Positions 2,215 to 17,900 of a stretch of 55,251 bases of DNA are shown here, one piece after another (positions within the stretch are counted from its first letter, which is position 1; the number at the start of each line of letters is the position of its first letter). A program made the translations under genes and the position numbers. The notes below the pieces were generated by a model that saw only the letters and a program-made list of their open reading frames with translations, was not told the origin of the DNA and did not search any database. The DNA is taken from contig DATATR010000302.1 of NCBI GenBank assembly GCA_036268695.1, forward strand, positions 1-55,251. The letters are read 5' to 3'. The stretch is from Polyangiaceae bacterium. GTDB taxonomy: Bacteria; Myxococcota_A; Polyangia; Polyangiales; Polyangiaceae.

Positions 2215-3498
2215 TCAACTTCGAGCTCGAGCGCGCTGCCGACGCCGAATACGGCGCAGGCCGAACGCGAAGCTTGCGAGCAAGCCCGCGAAAGCAAAGG
2301 GACCGCGCGCGGTGCCGAAACCCAGCGCGCAATAACCCACGGTTTGCGGCGTGGGGGTGTTATCGGAAGTGTCACTGCCGTCGAGCGGCTGGAGCTGGCC
2401 GGGCAGTGCACCCGCGTCCGGGTCGACCACGCATTCGCCGTTGCGGCAAGCGAGCCCCGGCTTGCCGCACAGCTCGAGATCCGTGCCGTTGTCGATCACG
2501 CCGTCGCAATCGTCGTCGAAGTCGTTGCATTGTTCGGCGCGCGGCGCTCCTGGCGTGCAGATCGAGGTGCAACCCTCGGCGTACTTCGCGCACCAACCGA
2601 TGCCGCACACGAGGCGCGCGTTTTCGTCGATCTGATCGTTGCAGTTGTCGTCCCGGTTGTTGCAGAGCTCCGGCGCACCCGGATAGATCGTGGGGTCTTG
2701 GTCGTTGCAATCGTTGTCGCACAAACCGAAGCCTTTGCTCGGCCCGCAGCCGGACATGGTTTGCGCGCCGCTCACGCCGTGACCGTCGCCGTCCGCGTCG
2801 GTGCAGTACTGCATGATCGGTAAGCCTTCGTCGATCTGGCCGTTGCAGTTGTTGTCCTTGCCGTCGCAGATCTCGGGCGCGTTCGGACTCACTTTCGCGT
2901 CGTTGTCGTTGCAGTCGGTGCCGAGCGCGGAGAAGTACTGTGGCTGAGCGCAGTTGATCGTGTAACCCGAAGCGGCCGAGCCGACGCCGTCTCCGTCGTA
3001 GTCGTGATAATATTTGGTGCCGGCGCAGCCGTACGCGGTGCTGAAAAATCCATCGCCTTCGCCGTCTCCGTGATCCGTTCCGTCGCCGTCGGCGGAGTTT
3101 GCCCAAACGTAAAAATCCACGCCGCCCGGCGTGCTCGGCGCGGTCCAACCGACTTTGAACGTCGTAAATCCGTTGCTGCCCGTGCGTGGCTGGGTGTGCG
3201 TCACGCCTTGCCCGATCAACTTCGTGCCCGAATCGACGATGTTGAGTTTGCCGAAGCCGTTCGTTTGCAAATAGAAGCCCGCGACTGGACCGTTGGTTTG
3301 CGAGATCGCGATCGTCAGCGTGACCAGATCGCCTGGGTTGATCGTCGGTTTGTCGAGCGTGATGTTGACGGTCGCCGGCTTGCCGCCGGTGTGACAGCCA
3401 CTGCAGCCTTGCGCGGCGACGCCATTTTTGTGCGCTACCGCCGGCCGGCTCGCGCAAAGCGCGATCAGCGCGACGAGCCAGAGGAGCAGCGGTTTCAT
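2215..3498 (-). CDS. Secreted protein: CxxCH plus Reeler/choice-of-anchor-V-like domain, MopE-type Cys/Asp repeats, MYXO-CTERM-like tail
   Basis: Start re-set to ATG 3498 (MKPLLLWL...AVA|H signal peptide). CSGCH motif, WTAP motif, repeats such as DCND..PNAPEICDGKDNNCNG, and a C-terminal Cys followed by a hydrophobic helix and Arg cluster. Confidence 0.8.
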   Translation of the reverse strand: MKPLLLWLVALIALCASRPAVAHKNGVAAQGCSGCHTGGKPATVNITLDKPTINPGDLVTLTIAISQTNGPVAGFYLQTNGFGKLNIVDSGTKLIGQGVTHTQPRTGSNGFTTFKVGWTAPSTPGGVDFYVWANSADGDGTDHGDGEGDGFFSTAYGCAGTKYYHDYDGDGVGSAASGYTINCAQPQYFSALGTDCNDNDAKVSPNAPEICDGKDNNCNGQIDEGLPIMQYCTDADGDGHGVSGAQTMSGCGPSKGFGLCDNDCNDQDPTIYPGAPELCNNRDDNCNDQIDENARLVCGIGWCAKYAEGCTSICTPGAPRAEQCNDFDDDCDGVIDNGTDLELCGKPGLACRNGECVVDPDAGALPGQLQPLDGSDTSDNTPTPQTVGYCALGFGTARGPFAFAGLLASFAFGLRRIRRRQRARARS

Positions 3499-3821
3499 CG
3501 AATGTGCACGGCGGGGGCAGCGATGCGGCCGAGTCCGGGAAGCGCTCGGCCCTGCAGTTAAGTGGGCGAATTCTCGCGCGTCGATCACCGAGAGTTGGTG
3601 TACGCAGCGCGGAAGTCCGCTGAAAACAGGCGAAGGAACCAAAAAGATCGCGCATCCTTCGGAATTTTCCGAGCGCACCCGCATGCCCCTCGGCATTCTC
3701 CGGGAGAAAGCGCCGGCGCCCGCTCGGAACTGGGCGCCGGACCCAATCGAGACTCTGGCTCGTTGCGGGCGCGGCGAAACGCCCGTTGTGAGCGCCAGGG
3801 AGCACGCTACGATGGCAGAAA

Positions 3822-4838
3822 ATGGGCGCACTGATCCTCGTGGTCGACGACAGCGCGGCCATTCGTCGGCAGATCCGCGCCGGGCTCAAGGAGCTGCAAG
3901 AGCTCGAAGGCGTGCAGGATTTTTTGGAGGCCGCCGATGGCCTGCAAGCCTTCAAGCTGCTCGTCGATCGCAAACCGGATTTGGTCGTTTGCGATTTGAT
4001 CATGCCGGGCTTCGACGGTTTGAAATTCTTGGCTTTGCGCGCGACCCGACCAGAGCTCGCCAACATCCCCGTGATCATGCTCACTGCCGAGGGTGAAGCG
4101 TCGCGCAAAGTCGAAGTCTTCGAGCTCGGCGCTTCCGACTACGTGACCAAGCCCTTCGATGACGAAGAGCTGATGGCGCGCGTTCGCGTGCACTATCGAC
4201 TCAAGATCCTGCAAGATGAATTGCGTGAAGCGAACCGGCGCCTGGAAGCGCTGGCCGATACCGACGGACTCACCGGCTTGTACAACCGTCGTTACTTCGA
4301 CGCGCTCTTGTTGCGCGAGCTGCAACGCACCGCGCGCTACAAGACTCCGATTGGCGTCGCGCTGATCGATATCGATCATTTCAAATACGTGAACGACAGC
4401 TTCGGCCACCCCATGGGCGACGAAGTGCTGCGCAACGTCGCTCGGCTCGTGACCGCGGGCGTGCGCGTGACGGATTGTGCCGCGCGCTACGGCGGCGAGG
4501 AAGTCGCGATCGTGTTCACGCAGACGACCGCTCAAGGCGTCGCCGAAGTGACGGAGCGCTTGCGTCACACGCTCGAGCAATTCGAACACGTGTACGAAGG
4601 GCGCTCGGTCAAGCGCACCGCGAGCATCGGCGTCGCTTTGATCGACGGCAAAGGCGTGCCGCTCACGCCGAAGGAGCTGGTCGAACGCGCCGATCGCGCG
4701 CTCTACCGAGCCAAGCGCAGCGGACGCAACCGCGTCATCACTTGGACGTCCGAGCTCGACTCCGATCCAGAGCTCGGCGCAGATCGACCCGAACTCGCGG
4801 ACAAGCGCGCGATTACCGAACCACCCGCGCCGCGATGA
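3822..4838 (+). CDS. Response regulator diguanylate cyclase (REC-GGDEF)
   Basis: ILVVDDS, CDLIMP and KPF receiver motifs. DGLTGLYNRR, DIDHFKYVND and RYGGEE motifs with an RVTD (RxxD) I-site. Confidence 0.95.
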   Translation: MGALILVVDDSAAIRRQIRAGLKELQELEGVQDFLEAADGLQAFKLLVDRKPDLVVCDLIMPGFDGLKFLALRATRPELANIPVIMLTAEGEASRKVEVFELGASDYVTKPFDDEELMARVRVHYRLKILQDELREANRRLEALADTDGLTGLYNRRYFDALLLRELQRTARYKTPIGVALIDIDHFKYVNDSFGHPMGDEVLRNVARLVTAGVRVTDCAARYGGEEVAIVFTQTTAQGVAEVTERLRHTLEQFEHVYEGRSVKRTASIGVALIDGKGVPLTPKELVERADRALYRAKRSGRNRVITWTSELDSDPELGADRPELADKRAITEPPAPR

Positions 4839-5022: not shown

Positions 5023-5490
5023 CTACGCTCGATCGCTCGCTCCGAAAACGCGGCGCGCCAAAATCTCGTCCAACGAGACCATGCCCGGTCCGATCACGAG
5101 CAGCATGACGAGCACACACAAGTACGTGAACTCATCTGCACCTACCAAGTCGAATATGCCGTGAATGTCGGATAGCTTCGCGGTCAAGATCGCCACAATC
5201 ATGCTGACGATCAACGGCAAGGTTGCAAGCCGCGTGCACAAGCCGATCACCAGCAAGCTGCCACAAATCAATTCGCTGTAGCCCACGACGACCGCATTCA
5301 GCCCCGGCGCAGGAATGCCGAGCTTGACGAAAAATTGAGTTACCTTGTCCAGGCTGTGCACCTTGCCCCACCCTGTCGACAAAAACAGAAGCCCGACCGC
5401 CAGACGGCCGAGCAACGGCGCGAGCCATTGCGCGCGTTCGAACGGCCGGAGCGCGAGCGCACGGTATTTCGCCAAAGCATCGTTTGCCAT
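5023..5490 (-). CDS. DoxX family membrane protein
   Basis: Multiple hydrophobic helices with GRL..G..F..TGWGK, ELICG.LL.IGL.TR and GPG.VSLD motifs. AGGA RBS upstream of ATG 5490. Confidence 0.9.
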   Translation of the reverse strand: MANDALAKYRALALRPFERAQWLAPLLGRLAVGLLFLSTGWGKVHSLDKVTQFFVKLGIPAPGLNAVVVGYSELICGSLLVIGLCTRLATLPLIVSMIVAILTAKLSDIHGIFDLVGADEFTYLCVLVMLLVIGPGMVSLDEILARRVFGASDRA

Positions 5491-5517
5491 TTGATTCCTA
5501 CTCTCACACCCTTTTCG

Positions 5518-6963
5518 GTGCTCGGTCTACTTGCTTGTGCGTTTTGCGCGCTGGGCTGCGCGCCGCACTCGCCCGCGGTCGCGGTTCTGCCAAGAGTACG
5601 CGCGCCGGCGTCCGCGGTTACCGTTGCGAATGCCAGCTCGAATCCAGCGTGGCGTTACGACGTGCGGCTCGAGTCCGGCCGTGAGCTCGCCGTCGACGCG
5701 AGCTTCGACGCGACCAACGATGAAGTCTTTGCCGTGGACGAAGCCGCCGCGCGCTTCGTGCAAAAAGTGCAAATCGCGGACGGCGCAAACTTCGTTGCTG
5801 CAGCGCCGCAAGGATCGGGTTTTCACGTGCCTTGCCGCGCAGGCTGCCGCGTGCGCTACCGCTTCGCGCTCGCCGAAGCCGCAAACGCTTTGCACGACAT
5901 CGATACCGCGATTGCTTCCGACGACGCGTTGATGGCACCGCCATCGACCTGGCTCTTGTCGCCACTCGATCCGCCGCCGGGCGGCTTGCTGCAATTTCAC
6001 GTCGATCCCGGCGCAAATGGCCATTTTGCGAGCGGCTTTCGGCGCGCGGAAAACAGCGCGCCGGATACGTATCTGCTGCCCGCGGGCGCGCTCGACGACT
6101 CGAGCTTCACCGCGCTCGGCGCGATTCACGTCGCCGAAGTTCCCGCCGGCGACACGACGGTGCGACTCGCCGTCGCGCCCAAAGGTCTGGCACTGACGGA
6201 GGCCGACGCCGAAGCGTGGCTCAGCGCATCCGCGGGCGCCGTCGCGCACTATTATCTCGGTCATCTGCCGGCGCGGCACACGCTGGTCGTGATCATGAGC
6301 GGGTCGGGCAGTTCGACGCGTGGCGAGACGCTCGGCGGCGGAGGGCCCGCGGTGATGGTACGCGCGTCCGATTCGGTCAACGCGAACACGACGCGCGACG
6401 ATTGGATCGTCGTGCACGAGCTGCTTCACGCCAATTTTCCGGATTTGGGCCGGCAGCACGCGTGGCTGAGCGAAGGCCTCGCGACGTACGTCGAGCCGAT
6501 CGCGCGCGCTCGCATCGGCCAAGTCGATGATCAAAAATTCTGGCGCGATTTGGTCGAAGGCTTGCCGCAAGGTTTGCCCGAAGCCGGCGATCAGGGCCTC
6601 GAGAACACGCACACGTGGGGCCGCACGTACTGGGGCGGCGCGCTCTTTTGCTTGCTCGCGGATGTGACGATTCGGGAGCGCACGAGTAACACGCGCTCGC
6701 TCGACGACGTGATTCGTTGGATCGGAAGCACCGGCGATGTCGACGACGTGCACTGGGAAATGCAGCGATTCATCGCCGCGGGGCAGCAGGCAACCGGAAC
6801 CGAGGTGCTGCGCGAGCTCTACCAGTCGCTGGCAGAAAAACCGGGAACGGTGAATCTTTCCGAGCTGTTCGCGCGACTCGGCGTGCGTCTCGCGCAAGGG
6901 GTACTCAGTTTCGACGACAGCGCACCGCTCGCAAAAATTCGCCGATCCATCACGGCCCGTTGA
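5518..6963 (+). CDS. Gluzincin metallopeptidase (M61/M1-like), probable lipoprotein
   Basis: HELLH zinc motif followed by WLSEGLATY and RTYWGGAL. Lipobox-like ALGC. Start uncertain (GTG 5518 or TTG 5491). Confidence 0.8.
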   Translation: MLGLLACAFCALGCAPHSPAVAVLPRVRAPASAVTVANASSNPAWRYDVRLESGRELAVDASFDATNDEVFAVDEAAARFVQKVQIADGANFVAAAPQGSGFHVPCRAGCRVRYRFALAEAANALHDIDTAIASDDALMAPPSTWLLSPLDPPPGGLLQFHVDPGANGHFASGFRRAENSAPDTYLLPAGALDDSSFTALGAIHVAEVPAGDTTVRLAVAPKGLALTEADAEAWLSASAGAVAHYYLGHLPARHTLVVIMSGSGSSTRGETLGGGGPAVMVRASDSVNANTTRDDWIVVHELLHANFPDLGRQHAWLSEGLATYVEPIARARIGQVDDQKFWRDLVEGLPQGLPEAGDQGLENTHTWGRTYWGGALFCLLADVTIRERTSNTRSLDDVIRWIGSTGDVDDVHWEMQRFIAAGQQATGTEVLRELYQSLAEKPGTVNLSELFARLGVRLAQGVLSFDDSAPLAKIRRSITAR

Positions 6964-7178
6964 CCGAATCCGGACGATCGAGCGATCGATGGTAACCGTT
7001 TGGTTCGATCTGAATACGGAAGACAGTCGTAGCCTTGTCGGTGCTCACGGTTGACCGGAGTTGCGGGTTAGCGGAAGTATCCGTGCCACTCGCAGCGCCT
7101 CGGCCGTGAAACGCCGCGGACTACGAGGCCGCGTGCGCCTGGCGCATTCGGATTCGCTAACTTCACGAGGGAATAGCA

Positions 7179-7478
7179 ATGAATCTCACGAACACTCTGA
7201 TGGCTGCTGCGGTTACTGGCATCATGGCGGGCGCGACGGTGGCCTGTGGCGGATCGACGCCCCCGGCGGCTGCGCCGGATTCGGCGGCTGCGCCGGCTGC
7301 TCCGGCCGCTGATGCGGCAGGTGCCGCGGCTCCGGCTGGCGACACCGCGGACGCCGCGGGCGCGAAGCACGACTGCAAAGGCAAGAACGCGTGCAAGGGC
7401 CAAGGCGGTTGCAAGACCGACTCGCACGGCTGCAAAGGCCAGAACGATTGCAAGGGTAAGGGCGGTTGCAAAGGCTGA
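7179..7478 (+). CDS. Cys-rich RiPP precursor (bufferin BufA2-like), predicted lipoprotein
   Basis: GAGGGA RBS. Signal ends in TVAC, followed by an Ala/Pro linker and two HxCKGxNxCKGxGGCK repeats. Lies directly upstream of the DUF692 gene. Confidence 0.85.
   Translation: MNLTNTLMAAAVTGIMAGATVACGGSTPPAAAPDSAAAPAAPAADAAGAAAPAGDTADAAGAKHDCKGKNACKGQGGCKTDSHGCKGQNDCKGKGGCKG
7368..7472 (+). repeat. Two 48-bp imperfect direct repeats encoding the precursor core
   Basis: 7368-7415 encodes HDCKGKNACKGQGGCK and 7425-7472 encodes HGCKGQNDCKGKGGCK. Confidence 0.9.
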
Positions 7479-7544
7479 GCCTTTGACCGCAGCGCGCTAC
7501 GCTTGCATTGACTGCGAGCGTAGCGCCTCTGCACTTTTGATCGG

Positions 7545-8375
7545 ATGTCGAATCGCTTCGGGCTTCCCAATCTCGGAATCGGCGTCGGGCTACGGACGGT
7601 GCACTACTCGAGCATCCTCCAAGCGCAGCCGAAGGTGGATTGGTTCGAGATCCTGAGCGAAAACTACATGCGCACGGAGGGCCGTCCGCTCGATTTTTTG
7701 GACGCGATTGCCGAGCGCTATCCGGTCGTGATGCACGGCGTGTCGCTCTCGATCGGTTCGACCGATCCGCTCGATCGCCAATACTTGGGCGAGCTTCGTG
7801 CGCTGCGCGAGCGCACGAAAGCGCGCTGGCTGTCCGACCATTTGTGCTGGACGGGCGTGAGCGGCAAAAACACGCACGATCTTTTGCCGCTACCGTACAC
7901 CGAGGAAGCGCTCGCGCACGTGATCGAACGCACTCGCGCGGTGCAAGATTTTTTGGGTGCCCCGCTCGCGCTCGAGAATCCTTCGAGCTACGCGCAGTTC
8001 GCCACGGACAGCATGCCCGAGTGGGAATTTCTCGGTCGGCTCGCGGAAGAGGCCGACTGCGCGCTGCTCCTCGACGTGAATAACGTCTACGTTTCGAGCC
8101 GAAATCACGGCTTCGATCCGCTCGACTACTTGCGCCGCGTCCCGTTCGATCGCGTCGTGCAGTGTCATGTCGCCGGGCACACGGATCACGGCACGCACAT
8201 CATCGATTCGCACATTGGGCCCGTAATCGATCCGGTGTGGAAGCTCTTGGGCGAGGCGCATCGGCGCGCCGGCGGTGTCTCCGTGCTGCTCGAGTGGGAC
8301 GCCGAAATCCCGAGCTTCGCCGAAACGCACGCGGAGGCTTTGCGTGCACGAGCGTTCATCGGGGAACCTTCGTGA
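7545..8375 (+). CDS. bufB: MNIO (DUF692/UPF0276) multinuclear non-heme iron oxidative enzyme
   Basis: GVGLR..HY, WFEILSENY, HGVSLSIG, SDHLCW, HDLLPLP, ENPSSY, LLDVNNVYV, HVAGH, DSH and LLEWD motifs. Confidence 0.95.
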   Translation: MSNRFGLPNLGIGVGLRTVHYSSILQAQPKVDWFEILSENYMRTEGRPLDFLDAIAERYPVVMHGVSLSIGSTDPLDRQYLGELRALRERTKARWLSDHLCWTGVSGKNTHDLLPLPYTEEALAHVIERTRAVQDFLGAPLALENPSSYAQFATDSMPEWEFLGRLAEEADCALLLDVNNVYVSSRNHGFDPLDYLRRVPFDRVVQCHVAGHTDHGTHIIDSHIGPVIDPVWKLLGEAHRRAGGVSVLLEWDAEIPSFAETHAEALRARAFIGEPS

Positions 8376-9301
8376 GCGACGTAGAGCGCCAAATCACTGC
8401 GGACTCGCTCGGCTTGCACGAGCGCGCCAGCGCGACACCCGCGCGCGAAGGCGCGGAACGCGTCGCGAAGCACGGCGCCGCGCCAGAATGGACACGCGGC
8501 GAGCTCACGCTACGCGCGCAACAAGAGTGGTTCGCGGCCGTCGTCAGCGCGCCGGAGTCCGAAGCCGCGCCGATCGACGACGCTTCCGCGTCGCGCTTGG
8601 TCTCGCCCAGCAAAACGCTGAGCTCACTCGAGCGCATCGAGATATACCGCAGGGGTTATCACGCGCGCTTGATCGAGTGCCTGACCGACGATTATCCGGT
8701 CTTGGCGCACACGCTCGGCGAGGGAGCGTTCGAAGCCTTGTGCCGGACGTACATCGCGCGCCATCCTTCGCGCGGGCCGAGTCTCAATTACTTCGGACGG
8801 CACATGGCCGAGCTCTGCCGCGCGGATTCATCCTTGCCCGCTTTTTGCGCCGATCTGGCCACGCTCGAGTGGGCGATCGTGCTCGGCATTCATGCGCCGA
8901 CCGCGCCCGCCTTGGGCTTCGAAGATTTGGCGCAAGTGCCGCCGGAACGCTGGCCCGGGGCGCGCTTCGAAGCCAATCCGTCGCTTTCGGTTTTGAGTCT
9001 TAACTATCCGGTCAACGCTTACCTGCAGAGCTTTCGCGACGCTCGACCCGCGCTCGCGCCCGAGCCGGGGAAGAACGTCGTGGCCGTATATCGAACCGGC
9101 AAAAGCGTGTGGCGCCTCGAGCTCGATCCTGCGCTCGTTACCCTCGTTCAAGCGCTGGTCGACGGCGCGACGCTCGGCGCGGCGCTCGAAGGCGTGCAAA
9201 CCTTGCTCGCCGATCGCAGCGAGGAAGAAGCCGCCGCGCTCGTCTCGACTTGCTTTCGTCACGCGGTCTCGAGCGGCCTGTTTTCGACGCTCGTGCTCTG
9301 A
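8372..9301 (+). CDS. DUF2063 (HvfC/BufC-like) MNIO partner protein
   Basis: GTGA overlap with the MNIO stop codon. ERIEIYRRGY..RLIECL..DYP, F..L.R.YI..HPS and DLA.LEWA motifs. Confidence 0.88.
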   Translation: MSDVERQITADSLGLHERASATPAREGAERVAKHGAAPEWTRGELTLRAQQEWFAAVVSAPESEAAPIDDASASRLVSPSKTLSSLERIEIYRRGYHARLIECLTDDYPVLAHTLGEGAFEALCRTYIARHPSRGPSLNYFGRHMAELCRADSSLPAFCADLATLEWAIVLGIHAPTAPALGFEDLAQVPPERWPGARFEANPSLSVLSLNYPVNAYLQSFRDARPALAPEPGKNVVAVYRTGKSVWRLELDPALVTLVQALVDGATLGAALEGVQTLLADRSEEEAAALVSTCFRHAVSSGLFSTLVL

Positions 9302-16569: not shown

Positions 16570-16673
16570 CCGCTCGATTATACTCGCGAAAAAGTGCCGC
16601 TTTCACGGGCGCGCCGATTGCTGCGCGGGCGAACTTCGACGCCGCTCGGCGCGCCGTGCTAAAGCACGCCACG

Positions 16674-17600
16674 ATGTCGAGTGAGGCCGTGCGCGCGCAA
16701 ATTTCCGGTGTCGTCAGCGACCACCCCGTGGTCTTGTTCATGAAGGGCACGCGCCGCGCGCCGCAATGCGGTTTTTCGGCGAAAGTCGTGCAGATTTTGG
16801 ATGGGGTGTTGCGCGAGTACGAAACCGTCGACGTGCTCTCGAGCCCCGAGCTCCGCGACGGGATCAAAGAGTTTTCGAACTGGCCGACGATTCCGCAGCT
16901 GTTCATCAACGGCCAGTTCGTCGGTGGCTGCGACATCGTGACCGCGTTGCGTGAGTCCGGCGAGCTCGAGCAAATGCTGACCGCGCCGCATGCTCCGGCA
17001 GCTCCAGTCGAGGTTCCCGAGATCCGCATCAGCGAAGCGGCGTTGAACGCCTTCAAATCGGCGCTCGGCGACGCCGACGGCGAAGTCCTGCACCTGAAAA
17101 TCGATAGTACCTTTCAGAACGACTTGTACTTCGGCGCACGGGAACCGAACACGATCGCGGTCGAGAGCGGCGGCATCACGCTGTATCTCGAGCGCGCGAG
17201 CGCACGCCGCGCGAATGGCTTGCGCATCGATTTCATCGACGGCGAAAATGCCGGCTTCAAGCTCGACAACCCAAATCAGCCGCCGACGGTGAAGCAGCTC
17301 ACGCCCGCGGAAGCAAAAGCGCTGCTCGATCGCAACGCGCTCGAGCTGTTCGATGTGCGGCCCGAGTTCGAACGCGCGCTCGCCAGCATTCCCGCCGCGC
17401 GCGCACTCGACGAAGCTGGCCAAAAATACCTACTCTCGCTCGACCGCGGCGCGCCGATTGCGTTCTTGTGCCACCACGGCATGCGCAGCCAAAATGCAGC
17501 CGAACAAGTGCTCGGCGAGGGTTTCCGCAACGTCCACAACGTCAAAGGCGGCATCCACGCCTGGGCCGAGACGGTCGATCCGAGCGTGCCGCGTTATTGA
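16674..17600 (+). CDS. grxD: Monothiol glutaredoxin (Grx4) fused to HesB/IscA-like and rhodanese domains
   Basis: LFMKG..PQCGFS, WPTIPQLF and GGCD motifs. The middle domain ends in IDF..GFKLDNPN. C-terminal DVR..E, CHHGMRS and GGI.AW motifs. Confidence 0.93.
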   Translation: MSSEAVRAQISGVVSDHPVVLFMKGTRRAPQCGFSAKVVQILDGVLREYETVDVLSSPELRDGIKEFSNWPTIPQLFINGQFVGGCDIVTALRESGELEQMLTAPHAPAAPVEVPEIRISEAALNAFKSALGDADGEVLHLKIDSTFQNDLYFGAREPNTIAVESGGITLYLERASARRANGLRIDFIDGENAGFKLDNPNQPPTVKQLTPAEAKALLDRNALELFDVRPEFERALASIPAARALDEAGQKYLLSLDRGAPIAFLCHHGMRSQNAAEQVLGEGFRNVHNVKGGIHAWAETVDPSVPRY

Positions 17601-17633
17601 TTTCGATTCAGTCGAACGTTAGAAGCGAACAGC

Positions 17634-17900
17634 ATGTCAGCGCATCCAACGAACTTTCAGGGCTCGGTCATCGACGCTCTGCGTGAAGCGATCGAACGCG
17701 AAATTCCGGGTAGCCAAGCCAATGTGAGTGGCGGCGGCGGGCATTTCACGATTGAGGTCGTGTCGAGCGCGTTCGCCGGCAAGGGCATGCTCGAGAGTCA
17801 GCGCATGGTGTACGGCGCGATCGCGCACTTGATGAAGGGCGACGCGCCGCCGGTGCACGCCGTCGACAGCTTGAAAACGCGCGTGCCTGCAGCAAGCTGA
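17634..17900 (+). CDS. bolA: BolA/IbaG family protein
   Basis: GGHF.I.VVS.AF.G....QRMVY and VHA motifs. Lies next to grxD. Confidence 0.9.
   Translation: MSAHPTNFQGSVIDALREAIEREIPGSQANVSGGGGHFTIEVVSSAFAGKGMLESQRMVYGAIAHLMKGDAPPVHAVDSLKTRVPAAS

What the first reader, a model, noticed from the sequence alone, without database searches (positions are those of the whole stretch)
7179..9301. MNIO RiPP cluster with a lipid-anchored, tethered Cys-Lys repeat precursor
Seen: a 99-aa precursor with a lipobox (TVA-C), an Ala/Pro/Asp linker of about 39 aa and two HxCKGxNxCKGxGGCK repeats (6 Cys, each followed by Lys). DUF692 and DUF2063 genes follow with a GTGA overlap. Known: DUF692/DUF2063 pairs convert Cys residues of exported precursors into copper-binding heterocycles (bufferins, HvfA oxazolin), and the CKGxNxCKG pattern resembles BufA2. 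Inference: the modified core here would stay membrane-anchored on a flexible stalk, as a lipo-RiPP metal chelator rather than a soluble periplasmic peptide. The His before each repeat may add a ligand.
Basis: partly seen in the sequence, partly recalled or inferred. Interest (0 to 1): 0.8.

Follow-up and report, generated by a model that had tools for sequence, protein, structure and literature searches.

The report
Lipid-anchored bufferin-type copper peptide operon
Three adjacent genes encode a small cysteine-rich protein with a predicted lipid anchor and the iron-enzyme pair that likely turns its cysteines into copper-binding rings; this kind of system is already in print, and only the short repeat core and a recurring peptidase-like neighbour set this one apart.

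Summary
In detail: a 99-aa precursor (Cys23 lipobox, 40-aa Ala/Pro/Asp linker, two 19-aa three-Cys repeats), a bufferin maturase that passes the BufB cut-off, and a DUF2063 partner, in a Polyangiaceae-like genome. The lipobox Cys is kept in 26 of the 30 closest homologues and the genome has Lgt, LspA and LolA, so lipidation is likely. It is not new: about 16% of Buf2 bufferins were already predicted to be lipoproteins, and a lipidated MNIO peptide (oxazolin NedA, a 'DAG-RiPP') has been isolated. The stalk is generic for this genome's lipoproteins, and all four MNIO precursors here carry lipoboxes. The His-ligand idea is unsupported. Earlier notes of this scan report lipid-anchored clusters and such a peptidase on other DNA. 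Verdict: modest variant of a known kind.

The parts
5023..5490 (-). DoxX-family membrane protein (BufD/HvfX-like), divergent from the cluster
   Evidence: PF07681 E 2e-20; NF050144 HvfX 69 bits, under its cut-off of 80; within 4 kb of bufB in 10 of the 19 closest loci
5491..6963 (+). M61/M1-like HExxH zinc-peptidase-like gene with its own lipobox (Cys codon 5557-5559); true start uncertain (TTG 5491 or GTG 5518; the frame is open from 5335)
   Evidence: HExxH-x14-EG in 120 of 120 homologues; Atlas neighbours carry Peptidase_M61; PF05299 hit by 11 of 52 aligned members at E <= 0.01; best solved match an M61 glycyl aminopeptidase at E 0.01; directly upstream of bufA in 12 of 19 closest loci
7167..7172 (+). 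Ribosome-binding-site-like GAGGGA before the precursor start
   Evidence: sequence
7179..7478 (+). Precursor gene (bufA, repeat type), 99 aa
   Evidence: NF050166 BufA2 41.2 bits, cut-off 60, profile positions 5-62 of 79 only
7179..7247 (+). Predicted lipoprotein signal peptide (residues 1-22) and lipid-acceptor Cys23
   Evidence: lipobox pattern in 79 of 120 homologues, 26 of top 30; Lgt, LspA, LolA over cut-off in the genome
7248..7367 (+). Ala/Pro/Asp-rich linker, residues 24-63, predicted disordered
   Evidence: 65% Ala+Pro; 17-53 aa, median 37, in homologues; lowest-confidence part of the model
7368..7475 (+). Core, residues 64-99: two three-Cys repeats of period 19, six Cys-Lys pairs
   Evidence: all six Cys invariant in alignments of 61 and 89 sequences; period 19 in 112 of 119
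7489..7532 (+). Strong RNA hairpin between precursor and enzyme genes, likely setting an excess of precursor message
   Evidence: -32.3 kcal/mol, z -4.4, 0 of 200 shuffles as stable; z <= -3 at the same place in 12 of 19 related loci, with unrelated sequences
7545..8375 (+). MNIO (DUF692) bufferin maturase, bufB
   Evidence: NF050167 MNIO_BufB 349.6 bits over cut-off 310; HvfB model 258 under 360; catalytic Asp252 kept
8372..9301 (+). DUF2063/RRE partner protein (PME1 type), bufC, with a 45-aa N-terminal extension
   Evidence: PF09836 E 5e-19, PF22106 weak; GTGA/ATGA overlap also seen in the related loci

Best explanation
The three genes form a bufferin/captophorin-type operon whose precursor is likely oxidised in the cytoplasm by the MNIO and its DUF2063 partner to carry 5-thiooxazole rings, is predicted to be exported and lipid-anchored at Cys23, and would then bind excess copper at the end of a disordered tether. 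Shown here: gene content and order, family assignment of the enzyme, conservation of the lipobox Cys and of six core Cys, presence of the lipoprotein pathway. Inferred: (1) BufBC removes 4 H per modified Cys, giving a 305-nm chromophore, as in Buf1, Buf2, oxazolin and fontiphorin; (2) Sec export, diacylglyceryl transfer by Lgt, cleavage by LspA, the order shown for NedA and DybA; (3) Lol transport to the outer membrane, since +2 is Gly (neither Asp nor Lys), +7 is Pro, and the long disordered linker favours Lol sorting; (4) pairs of rings give 2N2S copper sites. By alignment C72, C78, C85 and C91 match the four modified Cys of Buf2. C66 and C97 sit in repeat positions equal to modified Cys and the helix that carries the disulfide partner is absent, so six rings (-24 Da) are as plausible as four rings plus a disulfide (-18 Da). 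The hairpin likely makes the precursor in excess of the enzymes. DoxX and the M61-like peptidase are likely accessory, most plausibly for turnover of the peptide.
For: BufB model passed; DUF2063 partner and bufA-B-C order; six invariant Cys-Lys; lipobox in 79 of 120 homologues and 19 of 19 closest loci; Lgt (4 copies), LspA, LolA over cut-off; C-G-G and Ala/Pro stalks are common among 466 roughly predicted lipoproteins of this genome; lipidation plus MNIO modification shown for NedA and DybA (PMC13056109); Buf2 of Caulobacter vibrioides carries four -4 Da Cys, is copper-induced and protective.
Against: No experiment on this subtype. The precursor fails the BufA2 cut-off and lacks profile positions 63-79. 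The signal peptide has no Lys/Arg in the first 8 residues (38 of 466 genome lipoprotein candidates, 8 of 19 closest loci) and Thr at -3 (18 of 466). The enzyme has Ala253 where Cys-Lys-group MNIOs are reported to have a Lys-binding Asp. Lnt-like genes score under the cut-off. No copper-handling or sigma-factor gene was recognised among the flanking genes examined, and the ECF-like promoter pattern of relatives is not matched in the window. Copper binding was measured in detail only for Buf1.
Confidence: 0.7

Rival explanations
1. The peptide is made and anchored as above, but the neighbouring M61-like lipoprotein peptidase cuts or trims the tether, so the working form is a released, diffusible metal carrier and the anchor is a staging step.
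For: Peptidase next to bufA in 12 of 19 closest loci and near 8 of the 17 closest BufB copies in a family sample; kept beside buf genes in several gene orders (upstream, downstream convergent, divergent, in-operon after doxX); 27 buf- or DoxX-adjacent copies fall on one side of a tree branch against 21 non-adjacent ones, support 96/77, not starred; 0 of 20 other family copies have bufABC within 4 kb.
Against: M1/M61 enzymes are aminopeptidases that need a free N-terminus (recalled), and the tether is Pro-rich behind a blocked N-terminus. The gene follows DoxX at least as closely as bufA: doxX-peptidase pairs without bufABC (L104, L121) and one DoxX-peptidase fusion (P0217) exist. 7 of 19 closest loci lack it. 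Only two lineages were sampled, and kin are not independent.
Confidence: 0.12
2. Cys23 is not lipidated: signal peptidase I cleaves the weak signal and a soluble periplasmic bufferin with an N-terminal extension is released, as in Caulobacter.
For: No positive n-region and Thr at -3; 40 of 120 homologues with the same core lack the lipobox, so the anchor is dispensable for the family.
Against: An unpaired Cys is kept at the end of the hydrophobic stretch in 26 of the 30 closest homologues, with Gly/Ala at -1 in 77 of 79 and Gly at +2 in 63 of 79, while the linker varies in length from 17 to 53; unlipidated homologues lose the Cys altogether.
Confidence: 0.08
3. The product is a lipoprotein but not a copper chelator of the bufferin sort: the repeat core gets different chemistry or stays as thiols or disulfides and binds another soft metal or acts as a redox buffer with DoxX.
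For: Fold elements of Buf1/Buf2 are missing; the enzyme lies in a clade apart from those beside canonical BufA2 (quick tree) and differs at the selectivity site; three other MNIO operons in the genome could cover copper.
Against: The enzyme passes the BufB equivalog cut-off; 67% identity to a canonical precursor over 36 residues covering five Cys; unstructured repeat substrates (oxazolin, fontiphorin) also receive 5-thiooxazoles and bind copper.
Confidence: 0.1

Closest known systems
Bufferin 2, buf2ABC of Caulobacter vibrioides; Buf2 (BUF_6/12Cys) family (PMC11626156, PMC12452194)
   Same: Gene order precursor-MNIO-DUF2063; six-Cys, Cys-Lys core; spacing of CysI-V (x5, x5, x6, x5); BufB-type enzyme; about 16% of the family predicted to be lipoproteins.
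   Different: Characterised Buf2 is soluble (Sec/SPI). Canonical precursors end in Gly-aromatic, a strand and a helix with CysVI 12-13 residues after CysV (10 of 10 loci); here CysVI follows after 5 residues as part of a second repeat, and 0 of 120 homologues have the canonical tail. Enzyme selectivity site is Ala, not Asp.
DAG-RiPPs: lipo-NedA (lipidated oxazolin, Neisseria dentiae) and lipo-DybA (PMC13056109)
   Same: Lipoprotein signal on an MNIO precursor; modification in the cytoplasm, then Lgt/LspA/Lnt maturation; NedA is a repeat-type, predicted copper-binding peptide with the same MNIO + partner pair.
   Different: NedA has EGKCG (Lys-Cys) repeats and an HvfB-type enzyme; DybA gets ChrH-type macrocycle chemistry. 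No lipidated Cys-Lys bufferin was purified in the parts of the paper I read; such clusters are predicted there.
Captophorins, Cys-Lys group (PMC13097082); oxazolin HvfA and fontiphorin FonA
   Same: MNIO + PME1 partner + Cys-rich exported precursor; catalytic Asp kept; multiple Cys-Lys motifs put it in the paper's third precursor group.
   Different: The paper's experimental work is on Lys-Cys repeats; it reports Asp after the catalytic Asp in Cys-Lys enzymes, whereas this enzyme and its clade read E-W-D-A-E.
M61 glycyl aminopeptidase / M1 gluzincins (for the upstream gene)
   Same: HExxH, downstream Glu in a W-x-x-E-G motif and an invariant Tyr aligned with the M61 Tyr.
   Different: Below every family cut-off, no PDZ domain seen, predicted lipoprotein, and tied to DoxX and bufferin genes; activity untested.

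Membership tests
MNIO bufferin maturase BufB (NF050167) | Whole-protein score over the curated cut-off | tested here: met
   349.6 bits against 310
MNIO bufferin maturase BufB (NF050167) | Metal-binding residues and catalytic Asp | tested here: met
   H64, H99, E144, D177, N180, H208, D221, H223, E250 and D252 lie in motifs aligned with 3BWW; ligand roles recalled, catalytic Asp from PMC13097082
Bufferin/captophorin operon | Order precursor - MNIO - DUF2063/RRE (PME1) partner | tested here: met
Bufferin/captophorin operon | Cys converted to 5-thiooxazole; copper binding | not testable with these tools
   needs co-expression, MS and NMR
BufA2 precursor (NF050166; canonical Buf2) | Score over cut-off across the model | tested here: not met
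   41.2 bits against 60; positions 5-62 of 79; a canonical Polyangiaceae precursor scores 76 over 2-77
BufA2 precursor (NF050166; canonical Buf2) | Six conserved Cys with signal peptide | tested here: met
   six invariant Cys
BufA2 precursor (NF050166; canonical Buf2) | C-terminal strand and helix bearing CysVI (CysI-CysVI disulfide, small folded domain) | tested here: not met
   last gap x5 against x12-13; no aromatic residue or helix segment; both AlphaFold models low-confidence and uninformative
Captophorin Cys-Lys group | Multiple Cys-Lys motifs in the precursor | tested here: met
   6 of 6; Lys after CysI, II, III, V in 87-96% of lipidated homologues
Captophorin Cys-Lys group | Asp after the catalytic Asp of the MNIO (sequence-logo trait, not an absolute rule) | tested here: not met
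   Ala253, Glu254 (trait)
DAG-RiPP / bacterial lipoprotein | Lipobox Cys ending a hydrophobic signal, conserved in relatives | tested here: met
   pattern scan: 79 of 120, 26 of 30, 19 of 19
DAG-RiPP / bacterial lipoprotein | Positively charged n-region; SignalP6 Sec/SPII call | tested here: inconclusive
   no Lys/Arg in the first 8 residues, as in 8 of 19 close relatives; SignalP not on hand
DAG-RiPP / bacterial lipoprotein | Host has Lgt, LspA, Lnt, Lol | tested here: inconclusive
   Lgt, LspA, LolA over cut-off; Lnt hits under cut-off; LolCDE not searched
DAG-RiPP / bacterial lipoprotein | Diacylglyceryl-Cys shown by MS | not testable with these tools
   bench test
Oxazolin (HvfA/HvfB) | EGKCG repeats and HvfB-type enzyme | tested here: not met
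   no EGKCG; no HvfA model hit; NF003818 258 against 360
Peptidase M61 (upstream gene) | PF05299 match over cut-off | tested here: not met
   window protein has no hit; 11 of 52 relatives hit weakly, best E 0.0036
Peptidase M61 (upstream gene) | HExxH plus third-ligand Glu and catalytic Tyr | tested here: met
   invariant H, E, H, E, Y in 52 sequences; 120 of 120

The most novel reading that the evidence does not exclude
A distinct 'repeat-type' bufferin subfamily with its own enzyme clade converts all six Cys of a symmetric, unfolded core into thiooxazoles (up to three copper sites per chain), displays it on the outer membrane, and uses a dedicated DoxX plus M61-like peptidase module to shed or recycle the copper-loaded peptide, which would be a first dedicated processing protease for captophorins and a clue to what DoxX does there.
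Probability: 0.15. Interest if true: 0.55.

Novelty: new variant of a known kind. Interest (0 to 1): 0.3.

Why it matters
As filed, it adds a myxobacterial example to a class described in 2024-2026 and gives a convenient test case for a prediction not yet tested in the papers I saw: that Cys-Lys bufferins can be lipidated. The symmetric core makes a clean mass test (-18 against -24 Da) of how MNIOs choose their Cys. The tie between DoxX and an M61-like peptidase gives a handle on the one bufferin gene (bufD) that has no known function. None of this overturns a current view.

Tried and rejected
Structure: AlphaFold2 on the whole precursor (pLDDT 53, pTM 0.17) and on the core (pLDDT 60, pTM 0.29) gave no usable model, so no fold search was run. 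No solved structure matches the precursor or the single peptidase sequence. No RNA holder was listed for the locus; this is no evidence on expression. Signal-peptide conservation as a sign of a BufC recognition site: identities signal/linker/core were 0.63/0.59/0.80, but low complexity inflates the linker value, so the test is inconclusive; an A-A-x-x-G-h-h-x-G pattern is shared by 67 of 80 lipidated and 29 of 40 unlipidated homologues. His as a lipid-form ligand: rejected. Stalk as a special trait: rejected. Sigma-70 promoter and terminator scans found nothing useful. Sharing by outer-membrane exchange: Cys-repeat and PA14 searches did not single out a TraA gene; dropped as untested. The careful BufB tree did not finish in two runs; only the quick tree is used, and its precursor labels come from pattern matching with some errors (L010, L024, L066, L071 by eye). 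My first HExxH spacing pattern was wrong and was corrected. My lipoprotein scan is a rough pattern plus codon filter that the precursor itself did not pass, so its counts are indicative only. Supplementary files of the papers could not be read; Table S6 and Dataset 2 of PMC13056109, Fig. S2 and Table S1 of PMC12452194 and Data set S2 of PMC13097082 may already list this subtype and its neighbours. The C. vibrioides BufA2 sequence was not obtained, so the Cys-by-Cys match rests on proteins that pass the BufA2 model.
Full report
Observation. The ORF 7179-7478 is 99 aa, starts just after an in-frame stop and has a GAGGGA site six bases upstream. It has a 22-residue hydrophobic leader ending A-T-V-A before Cys23, a 40-residue Ala/Pro/Asp linker, and a 36-residue core with six Cys, each followed by Lys. 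The next gene (7545-8375) is an MNIO that passes the curated cut-off of the bufferin maturase model (349.6 against 310) and fails those of HvfB, ApyH, MbnB and ChrH. The third gene (8372-9301) has DUF2063 and a weak NGO1945_C match and overlaps by GTGA. The three-Cys unit is found in only 2 six-frame ORFs of the genome, both MNIO precursors. The closest enzymes (72-84% identity) come mostly from records titled Polyangiaceae, so the host is a myxobacterium of that kind.

Is the lipobox real? A lipobox-type pattern is met in 79 of the 120 listed homologues and 26 of the best 30, with Gly/Ala at -1 in 77 of 79 and Gly at +2 in 63 of 79, while the linker ranges from 17 to 53 residues (120 of 3448 hits were listed). 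All 19 closest genomic loci have the Cys. The genome has four Lgt, one LspA and one LolA over cut-off; Lnt-like genes are under cut-off. Against: no Lys/Arg in the first 8 residues and Thr at -3, both minority traits among 466 roughly predicted lipoproteins of the genome (38 and 18), though 8 of 19 close relatives also lack the charge. SignalP could not be run. I put lipidation near 0.87. The anchor is a swappable tag: 40 of 120 homologues with the same core lack it, two unlipidated Planctomycetota precursors sit inside the 22-row enzyme clade that holds the window (SH-aLRT 99, quick tree), and the label changes five times among repeat-type rows (labels by pattern, with some errors). It is also the local norm: the three other MNIO operons of this genome (contigs C71, C3, C58) all have lipobox precursors.

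The stalk. In the same rough scan 203 of 466 candidates have at least 75% disorder-type residues in their first 40 positions and 59 have at least 40% Ala+Pro; several begin C-G-G-S like the precursor. About half of E. coli outer-membrane lipoproteins have such a linker and need it for Lol sorting (10.1101/2021.01.05.425367, abstract seen). In Myxococcus xanthus Lys at +2 marks inner-membrane and Ala at +7 matrix lipoproteins (PMC3222651, passages); the precursor has Gly and Pro there, so outer-membrane sorting is the default inference, from a different family.

The core. Canonical BufA2 proteins run C-x5-C-x5-C-x(6-11)-C-x5-C-x(12-13)-C with Gly-aromatic after CysV (10 of 10 loci over the cut-off). 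The window's core shares the first five Cys (67% identity over 36 residues to one of them) but ends with a second G-G-C after five residues; it covers model positions 5-62 of 79 and scores 41.2 against 60. None of the 120 homologues has the canonical tail; the period is 19 in 112 of 119, and 2, 3 or 4 units occur (89, 4 and 26 of 120). In Caulobacter Buf2 the four central Cys lose 4 Da each and CysI and CysVI likely form a disulfide, -18 Da in all (bioRxiv 10.1101/2024.03.18.585515 section 7; PMC11626156 passages). Here C66 and C97 occupy repeat positions equal to C85 and C78, so six rings (-24 Da) are possible, as in oxazolin, where all six Cys are 5-thiooxazoles (10.64898/2026.06.05.730506, abstract seen). 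The enzyme keeps the catalytic Asp but has Ala where Cys-Lys-group enzymes are reported to have a Lys-binding Asp (PMC13097082 section 14); its clade reads E-W-D-A-E. Both AlphaFold runs were uninformative. The His idea fails: His precedes repeat 1 in 95 of 120 and repeat 2 in 55 of 119 (Asn in 50), it is not tied to the lipid form, and Buf1 binds copper through 2N2S from two rings (PMC11626156 section 9).

(a) A hairpin at 7489-7532 (z -4.4), with a counterpart of different sequence in 12 of 19 loci, likely raises precursor over enzyme message. (b) A DoxX gene at 5023-5490 (-), found within 4 kb in 10 of 19 closest loci; DoxX is a core but dispensable bufferin gene. (c) A HExxH gene ending at 6963, directly upstream of the precursor in 12 of 19 loci, with a lipobox of its own in the Polyangiaceae copies read. 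Atlas, Pfam and PDB profile searches place it near M61/M1 aminopeptidases, under all cut-offs; the zinc motif is intact in 120 of 120 homologues. The family is common (96 of 151 genomes searched) and mostly unlinked: 0 of 20 next-best copies had bufABC within 4 kb and 1 had DoxX. Of the 17 closest BufB copies in that sample, 8 had it nearby (two of these are the same loci as L012 and L016). A Verrucomicrobiia locus has bufA (lipobox)-bufB-bufC-doxX-peptidase as overlapping genes; of 6 metagenome loci found with that protein, 4 show buf genes and 2 show doxX at a contig end; of 3 further genomes in a sample of 251 from that class, 1 has doxX only and 2 have neither. One DoxX-peptidase fusion exists, a single-member cluster on 3 contigs. 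In a tree of 48 copies the 27 buf- or DoxX-adjacent rows lie on one side of a branch, support 96/77, neither shown nor rejected. So the link is real in two phyla but may be one inherited subfamily, and it may concern DoxX more than the precursor. The main text of PMC12452194 has no occurrence of 'peptidase' and a search for MNIO, bufferin, peptidase and M61 together found no M61 mention in the 4 papers listed. Earlier notes of this scan describe such a neighbour in an acidobacterial and a verrucomicrobial genome; I saw them after my own count and they are not independent support.

What is known. PMC12452194 (section 14 and passages) states that about 16% of Buf2 bufferins have predicted lipoprotein signals and might be membrane-anchored. 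PMC13056109 (parts 1, 4 and 5 of 7 and passages) names DAG-RiPPs, isolates triacylated, MNIO-modified DybA and NedA, and lists lipidated bufferins as predicted. PMC13097082 (passages, section 14) groups these systems as captophorins with a Cys-Lys class. PMC8692599 (passages) first noted six-Cys precursors before DUF692/DUF2063. Searches showed no purified lipidated Cys-Lys bufferin; the library lacks most subscription papers and supplements could not be read.

Verdict. It works like a bufferin and is very likely a DAG-RiPP. It is not filed under BufA2 proper, because the model cut-off and the CysVI helix were tested and not met. Interest 0.3.

Noticed in passing
L017, L018, L022, L023, L025, L032, L033, L035, L036, L040, L042, L044, L048-L051, L053, L057, L061, L062, L068 (precursors upstream of bufB): A sister group of BufB enzymes in Planctomycetota, Acidobacteriota and Verrucomicrobiota has precursors with twin-arginine (R-R-x-F) leaders, some with a lipobox, and a C-terminal helical tail. 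The main text of PMC12452194 has no 'Tat' or 'twin-arginine'. Tat export of a modified, folded bufferin would differ from the Sec route described.
   Followed up: partly
G000 contigs C71 (L153), C3 (L154), C58 (L152): Three more MNIO operons in the same genome, all with lipobox precursors: a 9-Cys repeat type with C-C and a terminal H-C-P-K, a canonical Buf2 type, and a long Ala/Pro/Lys peptide ending in two Cys beside an enzyme that passes neither BufB nor HvfB cut-off.
   Followed up: partly
upstream of bufA in L003, L006, L007, L009, L011-L014, L016, L020, L056; window 6992-6996: An ECF-promoter-like pattern G[TA]AAC-N15-17-CGT[AG] in 11 of 20 upstream regions (shuffle mean 0.3, maximum 2). 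The pattern was drawn by eye from half of these regions, so the test is partly circular. The window has only the first half.
   Followed up: partly
window 8372-8510: BufC has a roughly 45-aa N-terminal extension with a conserved E-R-A-S-A-T-P motif, shared by 11 of the related Polyangiaceae loci printed and absent from L029 and L031, which also lack the peptidase and DoxX.
   Followed up: no
window 5488-5493: The doxX start codon and the first plausible start of the peptidase gene abut head to head with no gap, whereas relatives leave more room; the promoters must lie inside the genes or one start is different.
   Followed up: no
L066:2416-3942: In a Bacteroidota genome the gene before bufB is a roughly 490-aa protein ending in a bufferin-like Cys module, with an N-terminal part that looks ferritin-like (recalled resemblance).
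   Followed up: no
L058, L060, L069, L072: Chlamydiota precursors place a long helical segment before the Cys repeats; some loci have two precursors, one with G-C-G repeats.
   Followed up: no
L109, L110: Peptidase and precursor (with DoxX in L110) stand together without bufB or bufC in the stretch fetched, suggesting modification in trans.
   Followed up: no
window 2218-3831 (-): Secreted protein with repeated Cu-binding_MopE (PF11617) motifs and a C-terminal membrane tail, about 3.5 kb upstream of the cluster; no link tested.
   Followed up: no
window 16656-17900: Grx4-type glutaredoxin fused to an iron-sulfur-scaffold-like and a rhodanese-like part, followed by a BolA-like gene (read from the translation; names recalled).
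   Followed up: no
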